Positions 4,958-54,462 of a DNA stretch of 64,000 nt are shown here, in pieces (positions within the stretch are counted from its first letter, which is position 1; the number at the start of each line of letters is the position of its first letter). The position numbers were made by a program, and so were the translations under genes. The notes beneath the pieces were generated by a model. That model had not been told where the DNA came from and ran no database searches. It saw only the letters and a program-made list of their open reading frames with translations. Source of the stretch: Shigella phage Sf25; the sequence record MF327009; one strand, written 5' to 3'.

Positions 4958-5720
4958 TTAATAGCCTCGATCTTGACGAGCGAAGTTTTCAGCATTTTTC
5001 AGATAATAAAGTTTAAAGATTTCCTCAGCTGACATTCCAAGAGCAATGAATTTATTCATGAAAAAGTGAAATTGGTCAATCAGTTCAAATTTAATTTCAA
5101 GCTGATCTTCAGGAGATAAGTCTTGAATTTTCTTGGATTGCATTTCAGAATAACGTTTCTTCCAAGGTTTCCATACAGCAGAAGCTTCTTTTTCACCATT
5201 ACTCATACCACCAAGAGAAGTATATAGCTCGCGAGTTTCATCTGCGATATAATCGTCTTGGTTTCGCAACCAAGCAAGAACTTCTCCTGCAGTTTCAAGT
5301 GAATCAGGATGACGATTTGTTTCTGGTTTATCATTAGCCAAACGAATCTGTAAATGCCGCTGCATGTCAAATTTTCTTGGATTGCATTTCAGAATAACGT
5401 TTCTTCCAAGGTTTCCATACAGCAGAAGCTTCTTTTTCACCATTACTCATACCACCAAGAGAAGTATATAGCTCGCGAGTTTCATCTGCGATATAATCGT
5501 CTTGGTTTCGCAACCAAGCAAGAACTTCTCCTGCAGTTTCAAGTGAATCAGGATGACGATTTGTTTCTGGTTTATCATTAGCCAAACGAATCTGTAAATG
5601 CCGCTGCATGTCAAGCATAACCTGCAATGGGTCAATACTGTGCATAATATACTCAGCATATGCACGATTTGCTTTATCAACACCTTCGATCAAATGAGCA
5701 CATTCATTAAAGTGAGCCAT
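4958..5720 (-). pseudogene. 56: gene 56 dCTPase/dUTPase, frameshifted by an internal 244-bp tandem duplication
   Basis: Both ORF pieces (5367-5735 and 4958-5443) carry the same segment; N-terminus MAHFNECAHLIEGVDKANRAY and C-terminus ...KNAENFARQDRGY match T4 gp56; 244 is not a multiple of 3. Confidence 0.7.
5126..5613. repeat. perfect tandem duplication, 2 x 244 bp, inside gene 56
   Basis: 5126-5369 is identical to 5370-5613. Confidence 0.9.
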
Positions 5721-5780: not shown

Positions 5781-7120
<1,340 letters not shown>

Positions 7121-7139
7121 TATATCATCCTCAGCAATT

Positions 7140-7176
7140 TGTTTTATAATACCATAACAAGCTGAGAAAGTAAACA
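7140..7176 (-). promoter_or_regulatory. T4-type early promoter (GTTTAC N18 TATTAT)
   Basis: gtaaac at 7170-7175 on plus strand; -10 TATTAT; followed by GAGGATGA RBS and the ATG at 7120. Confidence 0.5.
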
Positions 7177-7213
7177 AATTTATGATAAATATTAATTTAA
7201 AGGAGGACGACGC

Positions 7214-7414
7214 ATGGTACAAAAATTAATGGCACTTGTTAATGCCATCAAAGGTAATAAAAAACGTATAGCTTTTACTATTTCTGCTATGGTAGGAATT
7301 TTACTCTGGAACTTTATTTTATCACCTGTTGCAATTGCACATGGTATTAATATTCCAGTAGTTACTCTTGATACATTCGTAGATTTAGCATTTGCTTTAG
7401 TTGGGTTAATTTAA
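7214..7414 (+). CDS. small hydrophobic protein (66 aa), plus strand
   Basis: AAGGAGGA Shine-Dalgarno 6-8 nt before the ATG at 7214; two hydrophobic segments; fills the gap between gene 61 stop and the next minus gene. Confidence 0.4.
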   Translation: MVQKLMALVNAIKGNKKRIAFTISAMVGILLWNFILSPVAIAHGINIPVVTLDTFVDLAFALVGLI

Positions 7415-8439
7415 ATCTTAGCATATTTAGATAACCTCATTTTAGCCATCAACCCCTGGGCAATATTATTTTTCATATATTCCATAATTTGTTCAGGGGT
7501 TGCACCTTCCTTTCTAATCATATCATTAACATCTTTTGATTTCCAGGGAGATTTATCCCAAAACATAACTCTTTCTCCTGCATCAACTAATTTAGTCATT
7601 CGTTTGATAGTGTCAGGGTGACGAGGTTCATTATCTAAAACCCACACTCGTCTATCTTTAAATGGAACAACTTCTAGGTCTAATTGACCACCCGTAATAG
7701 CTATACCATTTTCAATAAAAAGTGAATCTATAGGTCCTTCTAGAACATATACATCACCATCTTTAACTCGTTCAACACCGTAAATTTTTGTTGCCTCAGG
7801 ATAAGCTTTGATGGTGATATACTTTTGTGGAGCATCTTTCTTTAATGCACGACCTTGAAAAGACTCAGCTTTTCCGTTAGCATTATAAATTGGAATAACA
7901 AGACGAGGCTCAGAAATTTCCTTTTTGTATGTTCCCGGTGCTATGCTATTAACTAATTTAGGCCATTCGGTTGTAAACCAAAGATATTTCCATTTATCCT
8001 TTGGAATACAACGAGCTTTTACATATTTTATAATTGGATGGTCTTCCGCCAGTTTATCTAATCTAACGCATGACGGAAGAGATTTAATTATTTTCTTCTC
8101 AGGCTGTTTAGGAAGTTCTTTAGGTTTTTCTACTGGACGACTTTTACCTTTTTCTTTTCTTATTTCAAAGATATACTCACGATATAAATCAGGTTCAAAC
8201 TCCTTTAAATATATTCCGATTGGTGCATGATAGTTACAGTTATAACAATGAATATTTCCTTCATTATTATCACCATAATACCATCCACGGGCTTTATTTT
8301 GGTCGGTTTTTGAATCTCCACAAACAGGGCATCTAAACCGCAACTTAAAGGTTGAACTATTATTTACTTGTGTAAATTTAGGTAAATGAGCTAATGCACG
8401 GTATGCAAACTCATTATCAATCCAAGGTATTGATGACAT
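7411..8439 (-). CDS. 61: DNA primase gp61
   Basis: 342 aa; zinc ribbon CPVCGDSK...CYNC; length and position match T4 gp61. Confidence 0.85.
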   Translation of the reverse strand: MSSIPWIDNEFAYRALAHLPKFTQVNNSSTFKLRFRCPVCGDSKTDQNKARGWYYGDNNEGNIHCYNCNYHAPIGIYLKEFEPDLYREYIFEIRKEKGKSRPVEKPKELPKQPEKKIIKSLPSCVRLDKLAEDHPIIKYVKARCIPKDKWKYLWFTTEWPKLVNSIAPGTYKKEISEPRLVIPIYNANGKAESFQGRALKKDAPQKYITIKAYPEATKIYGVERVKDGDVYVLEGPIDSLFIENGIAITGGQLDLEVVPFKDRRVWVLDNEPRHPDTIKRMTKLVDAGERVMFWDKSPWKSKDVNDMIRKEGATPEQIMEYMKNNIAQGLMAKMRLSKYAKI

Positions 8440-16028: not shown

Positions 16029-18872
16029 TCAGCCAAACAGGAAGTCTAACGAAGCTTTTTCTTCATAGTCCATACCAGCCGATTCACACATGCCTGCAAG
16101 CGGTTTAACAAACGATTTTTGGAACAAAGTTGAGTAGTCAATCCAAGACAGTACGTCAGAACGAATTTCTTTTGGAAGTTCTGTACCCGACGGCCAAGCA
16201 ATGCATTTGTCACCAAATGGATTTCCTTCACGCAATGGAAGAACCATTACTTTATTTCCATCCAAAATTGGAGCTACACCTAAACCGCTAACAGCTCGAC
16301 GATAAGTTAGCACACCACGAATATGGAACGGACATTTAAATCCTGGCCAACCTTTATCATCATATTTCGCTATATCGTTCGCAGTTTTTACTTCAGCAAT
16401 AACTTTATAGTCAAGTTGACGATATTCTTTCTCGAAGTTCTTGTAATATTCTTGGACAGACTCTTCACCTTCCTGAAGAATACGACGAATACTTTCTTCG
16501 AGAGCTTCTTGGACCGCTTTAGGCGTTGAACTCTGCTGAGTTTCCATACCCATGATTTTTAGATGCGGTTCAGCAAATCGCTTATCTTCCATATCATATA
16601 CGTTCAGAGCATAACGCTTTTTCGCTTTCCAAAATCCGCCAACGCCCTTTGAACCAAGTGGAGGGCAAGAAATAGCTTCACGGTCCATATGCATCAGATG
16701 CTCGCGGTTATTCATATAATCACATAACTCACGATATGCAACATCAATCATAGGTTCCATCTTTTTCTTACCGAACTGATTCATGAATTCAACTAAATCG
16801 TTCTGCTCTTTGAATCGGTCAAGACCAACTTTTTCAATAACTTTATCTACACAAACATATACCGAATCAGTATCACCTGCTGCAATGAAATCTTCGCCAT
16901 TAGTTCCGCATACTTTATTCAGATATTCATTAATTTTACGAGCAATCCACTGAATACCAACTTGGCCGAAAATTGTGATAGCAGTAGCATTTCGCAAATC
17001 ATAGTAACGGAAATGAATATTACCAAGAGCACCATAAAGACTGTTAATAAGAATTTTACGGTTCAGCTGATTTGTGTTAGCAAGTGTAGCTGCTTTTTCA
17101 CACTCTTCGATCAAACTATTAAGAACAGATTCGGTGTAATTCGATAGTTCATTTAAGAAATCATCACTGAACTTAACATATCGTTCAACTTCTGGTTTAG
17201 TTGAGCAAGACCCTGCGCCTTTCATAATAATCTTTTTAATAGCTTCGGCATTCATTTCTTCAGCGAACATTTTCTTTTTCCAATCTTTACGCTGGAAAAA
17301 TACTTTAGCGATTTCCTTTGGAATGATACCTTCTTGATGCTTATCATACATCCATCCATTCGGAGAACAAGAATATTCATCACTCGGTTTAGGAGCTGTT
17401 CCTGCGATATATTCATGAATTGGATGAACTTTAAACTGACCACGAATAGTCTCAGGACTAATGTTAACCTGACGAATAATGCTCGGATACAGAGACGTCA
17501 AGTCAAAACTCATAATATATCGACGAGCAATTGGTTTAGGTTCAAACACAAATGCACCCGGAAAACTCTGTTTAACGTGCGAACCTTGTTGAGGAATAAC
17601 CTTATGTTCACCTTTCAATGAGTTAAAAATAATAGCATCCCAAGTTTTAATAGGACTCATTACACCGGAAAAAGGCATTTTAGCGTAATAAGACATACTT
17701 AAAACTAGATCGATAAACCCGCGAATTTTATCAATTGCTTGAACTGATTCTACGTCAATGATGTTATAACTAATGTATCGTTGATGATTAGTCTCACGAA
17801 GTTTATTAATAGGACCGTCGTATGGTAATTTACCTTTTTTGGTTTCATGTTGAGCAACTGATTCCAAAGAGAATGACGGCAAATTAGTAAAAGCGAATTT
17901 CTTGTACAAATCTAAATAATCAAGAATAGATACGCCATCAATAGAATAAATTTCTTTGCTGCCGTACATATTTTGAATTAGTTTGGATTTTACCCGACCG
18001 ATTGGAGAGAAACGTTTCATACTGCGTTCGCCTAGAATCATTTTAACACGATTCATGATATATGGAACGTCAAACCCCTCAATATTCCAACCGGTAAAAA
18101 TAGCAGGTCGTTTCTGTTCCCAGAGATTGATATATTCCATGAGCATATCACGCTCATTATCGAATGGCATATAAATTACTCGGTCAAGAATTTCTTGAGG
18201 AACTTCATCACCACCTTCACAGTCAAGCTTAGCAGCTAACTTTGCATCCCATTTTGATACTGAACCGTACATTGAATTCAAAAGGTCGAAAACATAAAAA
18301 CGATCGTCAATTGAATCGTAATGAGTGATAGCATCAATTTCATATTCAGCTTTCATTGGGTCAGGAAATTTATCACCAGTAACCTCAATGTCACAGTTAG
18401 CTACACGAACACCGTACATTGAATTCAAAAGGTCGAAAACATAAAAACGATCGTCAATTGAATCGTAATGAGTGATAGCATCAATTTCATATTCAGCTTT
18501 CATTGGGTCAGGAAATTTATCACCAGTAACCTCAATGTCACAGTTAGCTACACGAACAAATTTTCGGTCATAAACAATTTCTGAACCATATGTATCACTG
18601 ATATAAGCGAGTTTAAAATCGTTCATACCGAGAGCTTCGAGACCGATGTCTTCCATTCGCTTCATCCAATCTCGAGCATCTTTCATTGATGGAAATTTTT
18701 GAGGAGCGCAGTTTTTACCATAGATGTCTTTGTACTTTGACTCTTCCTTACAATGCCTAAACATAGTTGGAAGATATTCTACTTCACGAGTACGTTCCTT
18801 TCCATTTTCATCAATATAACGTTCAACAATATTATTTCCGACTGTTTCAATAGAGATATAAAATTCTTTCAT
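16029..18872 (-). CDS. 43: DNA polymerase gp43 (family B), with in-frame 49-aa internal duplication
   Basis: 947 aa, 49 more than T4 gp43 (898), exactly the duplicated block VRVANCDIEVTGDKFPDPMKAEYEIDAITHYDSIDDRFYVFDLLNSMYG; exonuclease and polymerase motifs present. Confidence 0.9.
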   Translation of the reverse strand: MKEFYISIETVGNNIVERYIDENGKERTREVEYLPTMFRHCKEESKYKDIYGKNCAPQKFPSMKDARDWMKRMEDIGLEALGMNDFKLAYISDTYGSEIVYDRKFVRVANCDIEVTGDKFPDPMKAEYEIDAITHYDSIDDRFYVFDLLNSMYGVRVANCDIEVTGDKFPDPMKAEYEIDAITHYDSIDDRFYVFDLLNSMYGSVSKWDAKLAAKLDCEGGDEVPQEILDRVIYMPFDNERDMLMEYINLWEQKRPAIFTGWNIEGFDVPYIMNRVKMILGERSMKRFSPIGRVKSKLIQNMYGSKEIYSIDGVSILDYLDLYKKFAFTNLPSFSLESVAQHETKKGKLPYDGPINKLRETNHQRYISYNIIDVESVQAIDKIRGFIDLVLSMSYYAKMPFSGVMSPIKTWDAIIFNSLKGEHKVIPQQGSHVKQSFPGAFVFEPKPIARRYIMSFDLTSLYPSIIRQVNISPETIRGQFKVHPIHEYIAGTAPKPSDEYSCSPNGWMYDKHQEGIIPKEIAKVFFQRKDWKKKMFAEEMNAEAIKKIIMKGAGSCSTKPEVERYVKFSDDFLNELSNYTESVLNSLIEECEKAATLANTNQLNRKILINSLYGALGNIHFRYYDLRNATAITIFGQVGIQWIARKINEYLNKVCGTNGEDFIAAGDTDSVYVCVDKVIEKVGLDRFKEQNDLVEFMNQFGKKKMEPMIDVAYRELCDYMNNREHLMHMDREAISCPPLGSKGVGGFWKAKKRYALNVYDMEDKRFAEPHLKIMGMETQQSSTPKAVQEALEESIRRILQEGEESVQEYYKNFEKEYRQLDYKVIAEVKTANDIAKYDDKGWPGFKCPFHIRGVLTYRRAVSGLGVAPILDGNKVMVLPLREGNPFGDKCIAWPSGTELPKEIRSDVLSWIDYSTLFQKSFVKPLAGMCESAGMDYEEKASLDFLFG
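18264..18557. repeat. perfect tandem duplication, 2 x 147 bp, inside gene 43
   Basis: 18264-18410 is identical to 18411-18557; in-frame. Confidence 0.9.

Positions 18873-53931: not shown

Positions 53932-54462
<531 letters not shown>

What the first reader, a model, noticed from the sequence alone, without database searches (positions are those of the whole stretch)
7214..7414. Plus-strand small hydrophobic ORF with a near-consensus Shine-Dalgarno in an otherwise minus-strand region
AAGGAGGA lies 6-8 nt before the ATG, and the 66-aa product has two hydrophobic segments. It sits in the gap between the gene 61 stop and the next minus-strand gene, convergent with 61. Such ORFs can be small membrane toxins or holin-like or exclusion peptides; alternatively it may mark a locally inverted segment.
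Basis: seen in the sequence. Interest (0 to 1): 0.5.

Follow-up and report, generated by a model that had tools for sequence, protein, structure and literature searches.

The report
Conserved late-expressed small membrane protein gene
This is a real, strongly conserved 66-codon gene of T4-type phages. It encodes a tiny inner-membrane protein that is probably switched on late in infection. Most relatives already list it as a hypothetical protein, the T4 reference record omits it, and its function is still unknown.

Summary
The window is a T-even phage (99.9% identical to Shigella phage Sf24 here). A 66-codon ORF lies at 7214-7414 (+), 6 nt after AAGGAGGA, and its stop overlaps the stop of primase gene 61 in TTAA.

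It is a genuine gene, not a chance ORF or a local inversion. Intact copies occur in about 700 phage records and in seven Tevenvirinae genera, always convergent on gene 61 while the other neighbour varies. Substitutions fit purifying selection in this frame only (pooled pN/pS 0.25, no stops). Every ortholog has NATAAATA, the core of the T4 late promoter, 12-22 nt upstream of its start, followed by GGAGG.

The product belongs to phrog_2024 (function unknown). It is most likely a single-pass, N-in/C-out inner-membrane protein with invariant W32, N33, P38 and A40; G44 and P48 are nearly invariant. The second hydrophobic segment is not a transmembrane segment family-wide.

Distant members in non-T4 phages sit in late blocks with endonuclease VII, a spanin-like protein and an endolysin. 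That hints at a lysis-related role but does not show one.

The gene is already annotated as hypothetical in most relatives but is missing from T4 NC_000866. It is ordinary as a kind of gene and modestly interesting as an overlooked one.

The parts
7184..7191 (+). GATAAATA, a variant T4 late-promoter -10 element (consensus TATAAATA at -13 to -6). The predicted late transcription start is near 7197, giving a 17-nt leader.
   Evidence: An ATAAATA core lies 12-22 nt upstream of the start codon in orthologs of five genera, and ATTAAATA (a TA->AT variant) in two more. Position -13 is known to be poorly conserved (PMC1524935, PMC2988020). The Lutter GenBank record annotates the same 8 bp as a + strand promoter. 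No transcript data are available.
7200..7207 (+). Shine-Dalgarno sequence AAGGAGGA, 6 nt before the ATG.
   Evidence: AAGGAGG occurs only once in the 64-kb window. GGAGG is conserved upstream of every ortholog.
7214..7414 (+). 66-codon gene (stop included) for a small inner-membrane protein of family phrog_2024. It is the ortholog of Sf24 gp160, RB32ORF030w and RB69ORF029w.
   Evidence: phrog_2024 E 1.4e-31. 696 phage records hold it by tblastn. pN/pS is 0.25 with no stops in this frame only. Invariant W32, N33, P38 and A40; G44, P48 and G64 at 90% or more. AF2 gives helices 2-11, 15-42 and 52-63.
7216..7251 (-). Intrinsic-terminator-like hairpin (7251-7226) plus U-run (7225-7216) on the - strand. 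It is the likely 3' end of gene 61 transcripts and is embedded in codons 5-13 of the + strand ORF.
   Evidence: The - strand RNA folds at -16.1 kcal/mol (z -3.5). The + strand RNA folds weakly (z +0.3). The same site is annotated as a terminator in Yersinia phage fPS-90. It is not conserved in all genera.
7411..8439 (-). Gene 61 (DNA primase), the convergent neighbour. Its stop overlaps the ORF stop by 4 nt (TTAA).
7146..7174 (-). Sigma-70-like or middle-type promoter-like site for the downstream 186-aa ORF and dam. It lies back-to-back with the + strand late promoter in the 93-nt intergenic region.
   Evidence: Consensus scan: TTTACT-17-TATTAT with TG. A - strand promoter is annotated at the equivalent place in the Lutter and fPS-90 records. 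This is context only.

Best explanation
The ORF is a genuine protein-coding gene of the Tevenvirinae and belongs to family phrog_2024.

Shown here:
- It is under purifying selection in this frame.
- It is retained intact in essentially all Tequatrovirus genomes and in six other genera.
- It is always convergent on the 3' end of primase gene 61.

Inferred, probability about 0.8: late in infection, gp55-containing RNA polymerase starts at the variant late promoter GATAAATA (7184-7191). It makes a short-leader mRNA from about 7197, and the very strong AAGGAGGA site drives efficient translation.

Inferred, probability about 0.75: the 66-aa product inserts into the inner membrane as a single-pass protein.
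- A basic N-terminus (K13, K16-R18) faces the cytoplasm.
- One transmembrane helix spans about residues 19-42.
- A conserved W-N-x4-P-x-A-x3-G-x3-P-x4-[D/E] interface, loop and short amphipathic helix face the periplasm.

Inferred, weak, probability about 0.3: it acts at the envelope late in infection, most likely as an accessory or modulating part of the lysis machinery. It would be holin-like or holin-associated rather than an autonomous holin in T4-type phages.

Side effect: with no + strand terminator, late transcription runs antisense into gene 61. The whole ORF is complementary to the 3' UTR of the gene 61 mRNA.
For: Coding:
- phrog_2024 E 1.4e-31.
- 696 phage records have it, 686 at 80% coverage or more.
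- Orthologs at 25-55% identity occur in Mosig-, Gapriver-, Kanagawa-, Jiaoda-, Gelderland- and Moonvirus, always beside the primase.
- Over 8 pairs pooled, pN/pS is 0.25 with 0 stop codons in this frame. The other five frames give 0.38-3.0 with 10-73 stops, and differences concentrate at third codon positions.

Late expression:
- An NATAAATA or ATTAAATA element plus GGAGG lies upstream of every ortholog, although the sequence further upstream is unrelated.
- The late-promoter definition and the variability at -13 come from PMC1524935 and PMC2988020.
- The same composite signal occurs only at lysozyme gene e elsewhere in the window.
- The + strand shows only one weak sigma-70-like match, at the level expected by chance.

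Membrane and topology:
- GRAVY is 1.25.
- The AF2 model has a 28-residue helix and a 12-residue C-terminal helix.
- Mean net charge is +3.4 at the N-terminus and -1.9 at the C-terminus, with N above C in 43 of 44 family members.

Lysis hint:
- Distant members lie in one operon with a T4-type lysozyme (L025, L026).
- Others lie in a block of spanin-like protein, endonuclease VII, member, a ~180-aa protein, a ~100-aa protein and endolysin (E. coli phage DCP80).
- Others lie within 1.5-3.5 kb of a lysozyme gene.
Against: - There is no transcript, ribosome or peptide evidence. No paper on this ORF was found.
- The promoter has G at -13, a single deviation from consensus, and its strength is unknown.
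- For the lysis role, no holin, antiholin or spanin family matches, and the C-terminus is hydrophobic rather than charged.
- In T4-type phages the gene lies far from e and t.
- From established T4 genetics (recalled, not tested here), t-null phage do not lyse, so this protein cannot be an autonomous holin there.
- In the distant phages two soluble proteins separate it from the endolysin.
- Its most constant neighbour there is endonuclease VII, not the lysozyme.
- The AF2 model has only moderate confidence (pLDDT 75).
Confidence: 0.55

Rival explanations
1. It is a superinfection-exclusion or envelope-protection protein. In this reading a small inner-membrane protein blocks DNA entry or another envelope insult, as T4 Imm does or as moron-type proteins near tail genes do in temperate phages.
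For: - It is a small single-pass inner-membrane protein.
- In non-T4 relatives the gene sits just after tail-tip and tail genes.
- In one case it is the last phage gene before bacterial genes, a typical moron position (L028).
- One of the contigs that carry it encodes a serine recombinase, so that phage is probably temperate (L024).
Against: - The + strand of T4-type phages has no convincing early or middle promoter, only the late-type element and weak sigma-70-like matches at chance level. Exclusion in T4 is an early function (Imm, Sp; established knowledge).
- There is no similarity to Imm or to any PADLOC or Pfam family.
Confidence: 0.17
2. It is a membrane anchor or assembly factor tied to late DNA processing or virion assembly, and is not involved in lysis or exclusion.
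For: - Its most constant neighbour outside T4-type phages is endonuclease VII, often with overlapping stop and start.
- It also sits next to tail genes there.
- In T4-type phages it is fixed next to the primase gene.
Against: - Gene adjacency in phages often reflects shared timing rather than physical partnership.
- The primase neighbour is convergent and belongs to a different temporal class.
- No domain or structural match was found.
Confidence: 0.13
3. It is a type-I-toxin-like small membrane toxin, and its mRNA is controlled by the overlapping antisense 3' UTR of the gene 61 transcript.
For: - It is a small hydrophobic ORF.
- The whole ORF is complementary to the gene 61 3' UTR, which ends at a - strand terminator inside codons 5-13.
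Against: - The - strand terminator and UTR overlap are not conserved across genera, whereas the protein is.
- In Jiaodavirus a bidirectional hairpin, and in one phage an extra gene, separates it from the primase gene.
- A lytic phage has no obvious use for an addiction module.
- No dedicated antisense small-RNA gene is present, and Rfam gives no hit.
Confidence: 0.05
4. It is not a gene. In this reading the interval is only the gene 61 3' UTR and terminator, perhaps also a late antisense RNA, and the ORF is open by chance. Alternatively, it marks a recently inverted segment.
For: - ORFs of this length arise by chance about 22 times per shuffled window.
- T4 NC_000866 leaves the interval unannotated.
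- A - strand terminator lies inside it.
Against: - The frame stays open in seven genera at 25-55% protein identity, with invariant W, N, P and A.
- pN/pS is 0.25 in this frame only.
- The Shine-Dalgarno and late-promoter core are conserved.
- The orientation is identical everywhere and there are no flanking inverted repeats.
- The terminator is absent in several genera that keep the ORF.
Confidence: 0.03

Closest known systems
phrog_2024: hypothetical proteins RB32ORF030w, RB69ORF029w, VR7ORF033w and Sf24 gp160 ('predicted membrane protein')
   Same: It is the same family (E 1.4e-31), with the same length, the same position convergent on primase gene 61, and the same promoter and Shine-Dalgarno architecture. 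The window's exact protein sequence is deposited under many NCBI accessions and was seen on 259 contigs.
   Different: Nothing differs structurally. The family has no assigned function, and the T4 reference record NC_000866 does not annotate its copy at 17738-17938.
Phage holins: small class II/III-type holins and the T4 holin T (recalled from general knowledge, not from a family match)
   Same: It is a small late-expressed phage protein with an N-in transmembrane helix. Some distant family members are co-operonic with, or close to, a T4-type endolysin and a spanin-like protein. One UniProt entry for a homolog carries an automatic 'Holin' label.
   Different: No holin family matches in Pfam, PHROGs or NCBIfam. 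It has no charged hydrophilic C-terminal tail. In T4-type phages it is not near e or t, and T is already the essential holin there.
T4 Imm (immunity to superinfection) and similar small inner-membrane exclusion proteins
   Same: It is a small hydrophobic inner-membrane protein encoded by a T-even phage.
   Different: Imm is an early gene with two transmembrane segments (established knowledge). This gene has only a late-type promoter, probably one transmembrane segment, and no sequence similarity to Imm.
T4 RI antiholin: an N-terminal signal-anchor domain followed by a periplasmic domain
   Same: Both have an N-terminal membrane segment rich in small residues (Ala, Gly, Ser, Thr) followed by a periplasmic C-terminal part, and both are expressed late.
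   Different: The periplasmic part here is only about 24 residues. No homology to RI was detected, and whether the helix can leave the membrane was not tested.
T4 late genes embedded in early regions, such as lysozyme gene e and soc
   Same: The regulatory layout is the same: an ATAAATA core, a short spacer, GGAGG, then ATG. Gene e at 53932-54426 is the only other place in the window with this composite signal.
   Different: Gene e lies on the - strand with two exact TATAAATA copies. This gene lies on the + strand and has G at -13.

Membership tests
phrog_2024 (T-even small hypothetical membrane protein) | Significant match to the family HMM over its full length | tested here: met
   E 1.4e-31, residues 2-66 against profile positions 1-65 of 65.
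phrog_2024 (T-even small hypothetical membrane protein) | Signature residues W-N-x4-P-x-A-x3-G-x3-P and a length of about 60-70 aa | tested here: met
   W32, N33, P38 and A40 are invariant in 36 sequences, and G44, P48 and G64 are at 90% or more.
phrog_2024 (T-even small hypothetical membrane protein) | Synteny: + strand, convergent on the 3' end of primase gene 61 | tested here: met
   Seen in the window and in seven genera.
T4 late gene (gp55-dependent) | TATAAATA-type element at -13 to -6, upstream of the coding sequence | tested here: met
   GATAAATA at 7184-7191 matches 7 of 8 positions, with the deviation at the poorly conserved -13. The core is conserved in all orthologs. The definition comes from PMC1524935 and PMC2988020.
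T4 late gene (gp55-dependent) | A transcript that starts at the promoter late in infection and depends on gp55, gp33 and gp45 | not testable with these tools
   No expression data are available here. The published T4 omics study uses an annotation that lacks this ORF.
Holin | Small protein with at least one transmembrane domain | tested here: met
   66 aa, with a transmembrane helix at about residues 19-42.
Holin | Hydrophilic, highly charged C-terminal domain | tested here: not met
   The C-terminus is ...DLAFALVGLI. The C-terminal net charge is about -2 to -3, with no basic or hydrophilic tail.
Holin | Gene adjacent to, or in a cassette with, the endolysin and spanins | tested here: inconclusive
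   Not met in the window, where e lies 47 kb away. Partly met in distant members: in the same operon as a lysozyme but two genes apart, or within 1.3-3.5 kb of one.
Holin | Match to a curated holin family | tested here: not met
   No hit in Pfam, NCBIfam or PHROGs lysis families. Foldseek finds only family members.
Holin | Permeabilises the inner membrane and releases endolysin at a set time | not testable with these tools
   This needs a holin-complementation or membrane-depolarisation assay.
Imm-type superinfection exclusion protein | Expressed early from an early or middle promoter | tested here: not met
   The + strand upstream shows only the late-type element and one weak sigma-70-like match at chance level.
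Type I toxin-antitoxin | A dedicated antisense small RNA overlapping the toxin mRNA, conserved together with the toxin | tested here: not met
   The only antisense RNA is the gene 61 3' UTR. Its terminator and overlap are not conserved across genera that keep the protein. Rfam gives no hit.
Intrinsic terminator (the - strand hairpin at 7216-7251) | Stable G+C-containing hairpin followed directly by a U-run | tested here: met
   11-bp stem followed by UUUUUGU; -16.1 kcal/mol, z -3.5 on the - strand RNA only.

The most novel reading that the evidence does not exclude
The protein is a previously overlooked, near-universal component of the T-even late envelope programme. It could be a regulator of holin T triggering or of lysis inhibition. 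In the distantly related phages that lack a recognisable holin next to their endolysin, it could be the founding member of a new holin class. It was missed in sixty years of T4 genetics partly because the T4 reference annotation omits it.
Probability: 0.2. Interest if true: 0.6.

Novelty: already known. Interest (0 to 1): 0.35.

Why it matters
- The gene is kept intact in essentially every sequenced T-even phage and in six further genera, so it is doing something selectable.
- It is absent from the T4 reference annotation (NC_000866). T4 transcriptomic, proteomic and gene-by-gene screening studies that rely on that record are therefore blind to it.
- It is a cheap target. One deletion or amber mutant, plus re-mapping of existing T4 RNA-seq and proteomics data, would show whether T4 has an unrecognised late membrane factor.
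- If it affects lysis timing or lysis inhibition, it would add a component to one of the best-studied lysis systems.
- If it has no phenotype, it remains an ordinary conserved hypothetical gene.

Tried and rejected
- **Known protein families.** Pfam, NCBIfam, PADLOC and PDB sequence profiles gave nothing for the 66-aa protein. Only phrog_2024 matched, and its function is unknown.
- **Structure search.** Foldseek of the AF2 model against BFVD found only family members. Against PDB it found nothing. The afdb50 library was unavailable.
- **Non-coding RNA.** Rfam gave no meaningful hit.
- **Inverted segment.** No flanking inverted repeats were found, and the orientation is conserved in all genera.
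- **Conservation explained by the gene 61 terminator.** The - strand hairpin is real in Tequatrovirus. It is absent in Mosig-, Gapriver- and Kanagawavirus, which keep the ORF.
- **Plus-strand terminator.** None was found within 3 kb downstream.
- **Literature.** Eight full-text searches found no paper that mentions this ORF. They covered ORF names, T4 small ORFs, Ribo-seq, TSS mapping and omics. The Miller 2003 T4 genome review was not held.
- **Distant members in cultured phages.** tblastn with P0129 and P0132 against cultured phages found nothing. Their contexts came from metagenome contigs instead.
- **IMG/VR locus scan.** Only 8 loci were returned, so the pN/pS test rests on 21 distinct sequences rather than hundreds.

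Full report
**What the window is**

The region 6400-7700 is 99.9% identical to Shigella phage Sf24 and about 98% identical to phage T2, both Tequatrovirus. The local gene order, all on the - strand, is:
- gene 56;
- dam (5781-6560);
- a 186-aa ORF (6560-7120);
- then, after the finding, gene 61 primase (7411-8439), 61.1, 61.2, sp, 61.4, dmd and 41.

**Check of the observation**

- The ORF runs from ATG 7214 to TAA 7412-7414 on the + strand and encodes 66 residues.
- AAGGAGGA lies at 7200-7207, 6 nt before the ATG.
- The ORF stop and the gene 61 stop overlap in TTAA (7411-7414).
- The protein is very hydrophobic (GRAVY 1.25). It has a basic cluster at K13 and K16-R18 and two hydrophobic stretches, 19-42 and 47-66. 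The second stretch contains D53 and D57.
- Length alone is not significant: dinucleotide shuffles of the window give about 22 ATG ORFs of at least 66 codons. Only 0.1 of these per shuffle has a strong Shine-Dalgarno.
- AAGGAGG occurs once in the entire 64 kb.

**Is it a gene?**

*Distribution*
- tblastn finds the protein in 696 phage records, 686 of them at 80% coverage or more.
- About 502 records are at 90% identity or more. That matches the 503 records that share this DNA region at all, so essentially every Tequatrovirus keeps it intact.
- More distant copies (25-55% identity) occur in Mosigvirus, Gaprivervirus, Kanagawavirus, Jiaodavirus, Gelderlandvirus and Moonvirus.
- All copies are on the + strand and converge on the 3' end of the primase gene.
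- The neighbour on the other side varies. It can be dam, the 186-aa ORF, a seg-type homing endonuclease, gene 56 or other small ORFs.

*Sequence conservation*
- The family alignment shows invariant W32, N33, P38 and A40, with G44, P48 and G64 nearly invariant.

*Codon-level test on eight informative pairs*
- Pooled pN/pS is 0.25 with no stop codons in the annotated frame.
- The other five frames give 0.38-3.0 with 10-73 stops.
- Differences concentrate at third codon positions. For example, the pair L009/L020 has 2, 4 and 22 differences at positions 1, 2 and 3, with Sd 21 against Nd 7.

*Alternatives excluded*
- Rfam finds no RNA family.
- The 'conserved non-coding interval' and 'local inversion' readings are therefore rejected. 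There are no flanking inverted repeats.

**Expression signals**

- Upstream of every ortholog, in otherwise unrelated sequence, there is an 8-mer with the core ATAAATA, followed 12-22 nt later by the start codon, with GGAGG in between. The 8-mers are:
  - GATAAATA in the window (7184-7191), T4, T2 and Lutter;
  - AATAAATA in F2, phiC120 and fPS-90;
  - TATAAATA in Q7622 and CIP9;
  - CATAAATA in VR7 and pKp20;
  - ATTAAATA in Gelderland- and Moonvirus.
- The T4 late promoter is TATAAATA at -13 to -6.
  - Position -13 is poorly conserved across T4-like phages (PMC1524935).
  - 9 of 50 T4 sites have A at -13, other single deviations occur, and a TA->AT variant is listed (PMC2988020).
- The Lutter GenBank record annotates the same 8 bp as a + strand promoter.
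- In the window, the composite ATAAATA-N8-24-GGAGG-N3-9-ATG occurs twice against 0.06 expected. The hits are this ORF and the lysozyme gene e (53932-54426, - strand), a classical late gene. That serves as an internal positive control.
- The + strand shows only one weak sigma-70-like match, at the level expected by chance.
- I infer gp55-dependent late transcription starting near 7197, with a 17-nt leader. This is inferred from sequence and has not been observed.

**Relation to gene 61**

- On the - strand there is a terminator-like hairpin at 7251-7226 followed by UUUUUGU (7225-7216). It lies inside codons 5-13 of the ORF.
- It is stable as - strand RNA (-16.1 kcal/mol, z -3.5). It is weak as + strand RNA (z +0.3), because several G-U pairs become A-C mismatches.
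- fPS-90 annotates the same terminator.
- The whole ORF is therefore antisense to the 3' UTR of the gene 61 mRNA.
- No + strand terminator follows within 3 kb, so late transcripts should run antisense into gene 61.
- This arrangement is not conserved:
  - Mosig-, Gapriver- and Kanagawavirus lack the hairpin.
  - Gelderland- and Moonvirus have unrelated hairpins.
  - Jiaodavirus has a G+C-rich bidirectional hairpin between the two stops, and in one phage an extra gene.
- The antisense relationship is a local consequence. It is not the reason the ORF is conserved.

**The protein**

- No Pfam, NCBIfam, PADLOC or PDB sequence family matches. The only hit is phrog_2024, function unknown (E 1.4e-31).
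- A profile search of 1.84 billion representatives finds only 20 clusters, all 33-99 aa.
- AlphaFold2 with a 36-sequence alignment gives pLDDT 75. It predicts helix 2-11, a 28-residue helix 15-42, a loop 43-51 and a 12-residue helix 52-63.
- Across 44 family members the region before the transmembrane helix has mean net charge +3.4 and the region after it -1.9. N exceeds C in 43 of 44, which indicates N-in/C-out by the positive-inside rule.
- The second hydrophobic segment is strongly hydrophobic only in the Tequatrovirus and Gaprivervirus-A types. Elsewhere it contains E, H, K or R, for example EHLRTAATLMLGF.
- The best model is one transmembrane helix with the conserved WN...P.A...G...P....[D/E] motif at the periplasmic interface, followed by a short periplasmic amphipathic helix.
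- Foldseek finds only family members in BFVD and nothing in PDB.

**Clues to function from distant relatives**

The weakest profile hits come from non-T4 contigs.
- In L023, L024, L031, L032 and L033 the order is: large tail or tail-tip protein, a 94-98-aa protein with an N-terminal transmembrane helix and a coiled coil, endonuclease VII, then the family member. The member's start often overlaps the endonuclease VII stop. It is sometimes followed by basic soluble proteins of about 180 and about 106 aa.
- In L025 and L026 the member heads a + strand operon: member, 180 aa, 109 aa, T4-type lysozyme. This lies beside a 91-aa transmembrane coiled-coil protein and the tail-tip gene.
- In E. coli phage DCP80 the order is: J-like protein, a 153-aa transmembrane coiled-coil protein (weak Rz-like spanin hit, E 1e-3), endonuclease VII, an unannotated 57-aa ORF, 183 aa, 99 aa, and then an endolysin 1.3 kb further on. 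The 57-aa ORF has WNHIVSP and matches phrog_2024 at E 4e-4; hhalign gives E 3.5e-4.
- In L028 the member is the last phage gene before bacterial genes, with a lysozyme 1.5 kb away.

Outside the T4 group the family therefore lives in late blocks that contain lysis genes. This is a positional hint of a lysis-related role. The most constant neighbour, however, is endonuclease VII, and a moron or exclusion role is equally compatible with the L028 position.

**Why not simply 'a holin'?**

- The protein lacks the charged C-terminal tail and matches no holin family.
- In T4-type phages it is unlinked to e and t.
- From established T4 genetics (not tested here), t-null phage fail to lyse, so the protein cannot be an autonomous holin there. 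An accessory or modulating role remains possible.
- One UniProt 'Holin' label on a homolog has no stated basis and looks like an unreviewed electronic annotation.

**Status in databases and literature**

- The window's exact protein sequence is deposited under many NCBI accessions as 'hypothetical protein' and was seen on 259 contigs. Sf24 calls it gp160, 'predicted membrane protein'.
- The T4 variant of the sequence has no NCBI or UniProt accession. NC_000866 shows a 309-nt unannotated gap between dam and gene 61, where the ORF lies at 17738-17938.
- No paper mentioning the ORF was found.

**Verdict**

- Real gene: about 0.95.
- Late-expressed: about 0.8.
- Single-pass N-in/C-out inner-membrane protein: about 0.75.
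- Lysis-related function: about 0.3. Exclusion: about 0.17. Assembly or DNA-processing anchor: about 0.13.

As a kind of object it is ordinary and already catalogued. It is mildly interesting because it is nearly universal in T-even phages, functionally blank, and missing from the T4 reference annotation.

Noticed in passing
window 5126-5613 (- strand gene 56, dCTPase): There is a perfect 244-nt tandem duplication (5126-5369 and 5370-5613, 100% identical) inside gene 56. Because 244 is not a multiple of 3, it splits the gene into a 5' fragment that ends at 5367 and a 3' fragment that restarts at 5443. Sf24 and T2 have an ordinary 519-nt gene. A probe across the junction matched 231 phage records, and in every record inspected it aligned only as two overlapping pieces, so none shows the duplication. 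It is either a private variant, an assembly artefact or an edit.
   Followed up: partly
window 6560-7120 (- strand), between the finding and dam: This 186-aa ORF (phrog_8706) is present in T2 and Sf24-type phages but absent from T4, and its stop overlaps the dam start. It carries an invariant D72...E85-x-K87 motif. It has weak hits to DpnII, BanI and HSDR_N (Pfam E ~0.01) and to a type II restriction enzyme model (PADLOC E 2.4e-4). The AF2 model (pLDDT 79) matches PD-(D/E)XK nucleases: Card1/Can2, McrC, Bax1, and MunI with TM-score 0.60. It is probably a nuclease gene paired with the GATC methylase.
   Followed up: partly
L004 3239-3439 = T4 NC_000866.4 17738-17938 (+): The T4 reference record leaves this conserved ORF unannotated in a 309-nt 'gap' between dam and gene 61. 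The exact T4 variant of the protein has no NCBI or UniProt accession, and the T4 records in tblastn show 'none' under the match.
   Followed up: yes
L008 1295-1492 and about 1504-1700; L015-L017 about 2495-2901 (Gaprivervirus VR7, VR25/26-like): Gaprivervirus carries two tandem paralogs of the family. Copy A is T4-like. Copy B resembles the single copy of Kanagawavirus Q7622 and of several Klebsiella phages, and it starts at a GGTGG site that overlaps the stop of copy A. Copy B is unannotated in VR7. It appears to be decaying in L017, where the ATG is followed directly by TGA.
   Followed up: partly
L035 6786-6959 = E. coli phage DCP80 PQ671644 23411-23584 (+): An unannotated 57-aa ORF overlaps the end of the endonuclease VII gene. 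It has the WN..V.P motif and its only PHROG hit is phrog_2024 (E 4e-4). The 153-aa ORF upstream (5847-6308), with an N-terminal transmembrane helix and a coiled coil, is also unannotated. The record is filed under Gaprivervirus although it is 141 kb long with a different gene order here.
   Followed up: partly
L023, L024, L031, L032, L033, L035 (non-T4 contigs): Family members are repeatedly linked to endonuclease VII. The member usually starts within the last few codons of the endonuclease VII gene, and a protein of about 95-150 aa with an N-terminal transmembrane helix and a coiled coil comes just before. The reason for this linkage is unexplained.
   Followed up: partly
window 7216-7251 (- strand): The gene 61 terminator hairpin is encoded within codons 5-13 of the opposite-strand ORF. 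It is strand-asymmetric: 11 pairs including G-U on the - strand RNA, but only 6 pairs on the + strand RNA. One stretch therefore serves two strands.
   Followed up: yes
whole window; 53932-54460 (- strand): AAGGAGG occurs only once in 64 kb against 4.3 expected from shuffles. The lysozyme gene e carries two exact TATAAATA copies (54440-54447 and 54453-54460) upstream of GGAGG-ATG.
   Followed up: partly
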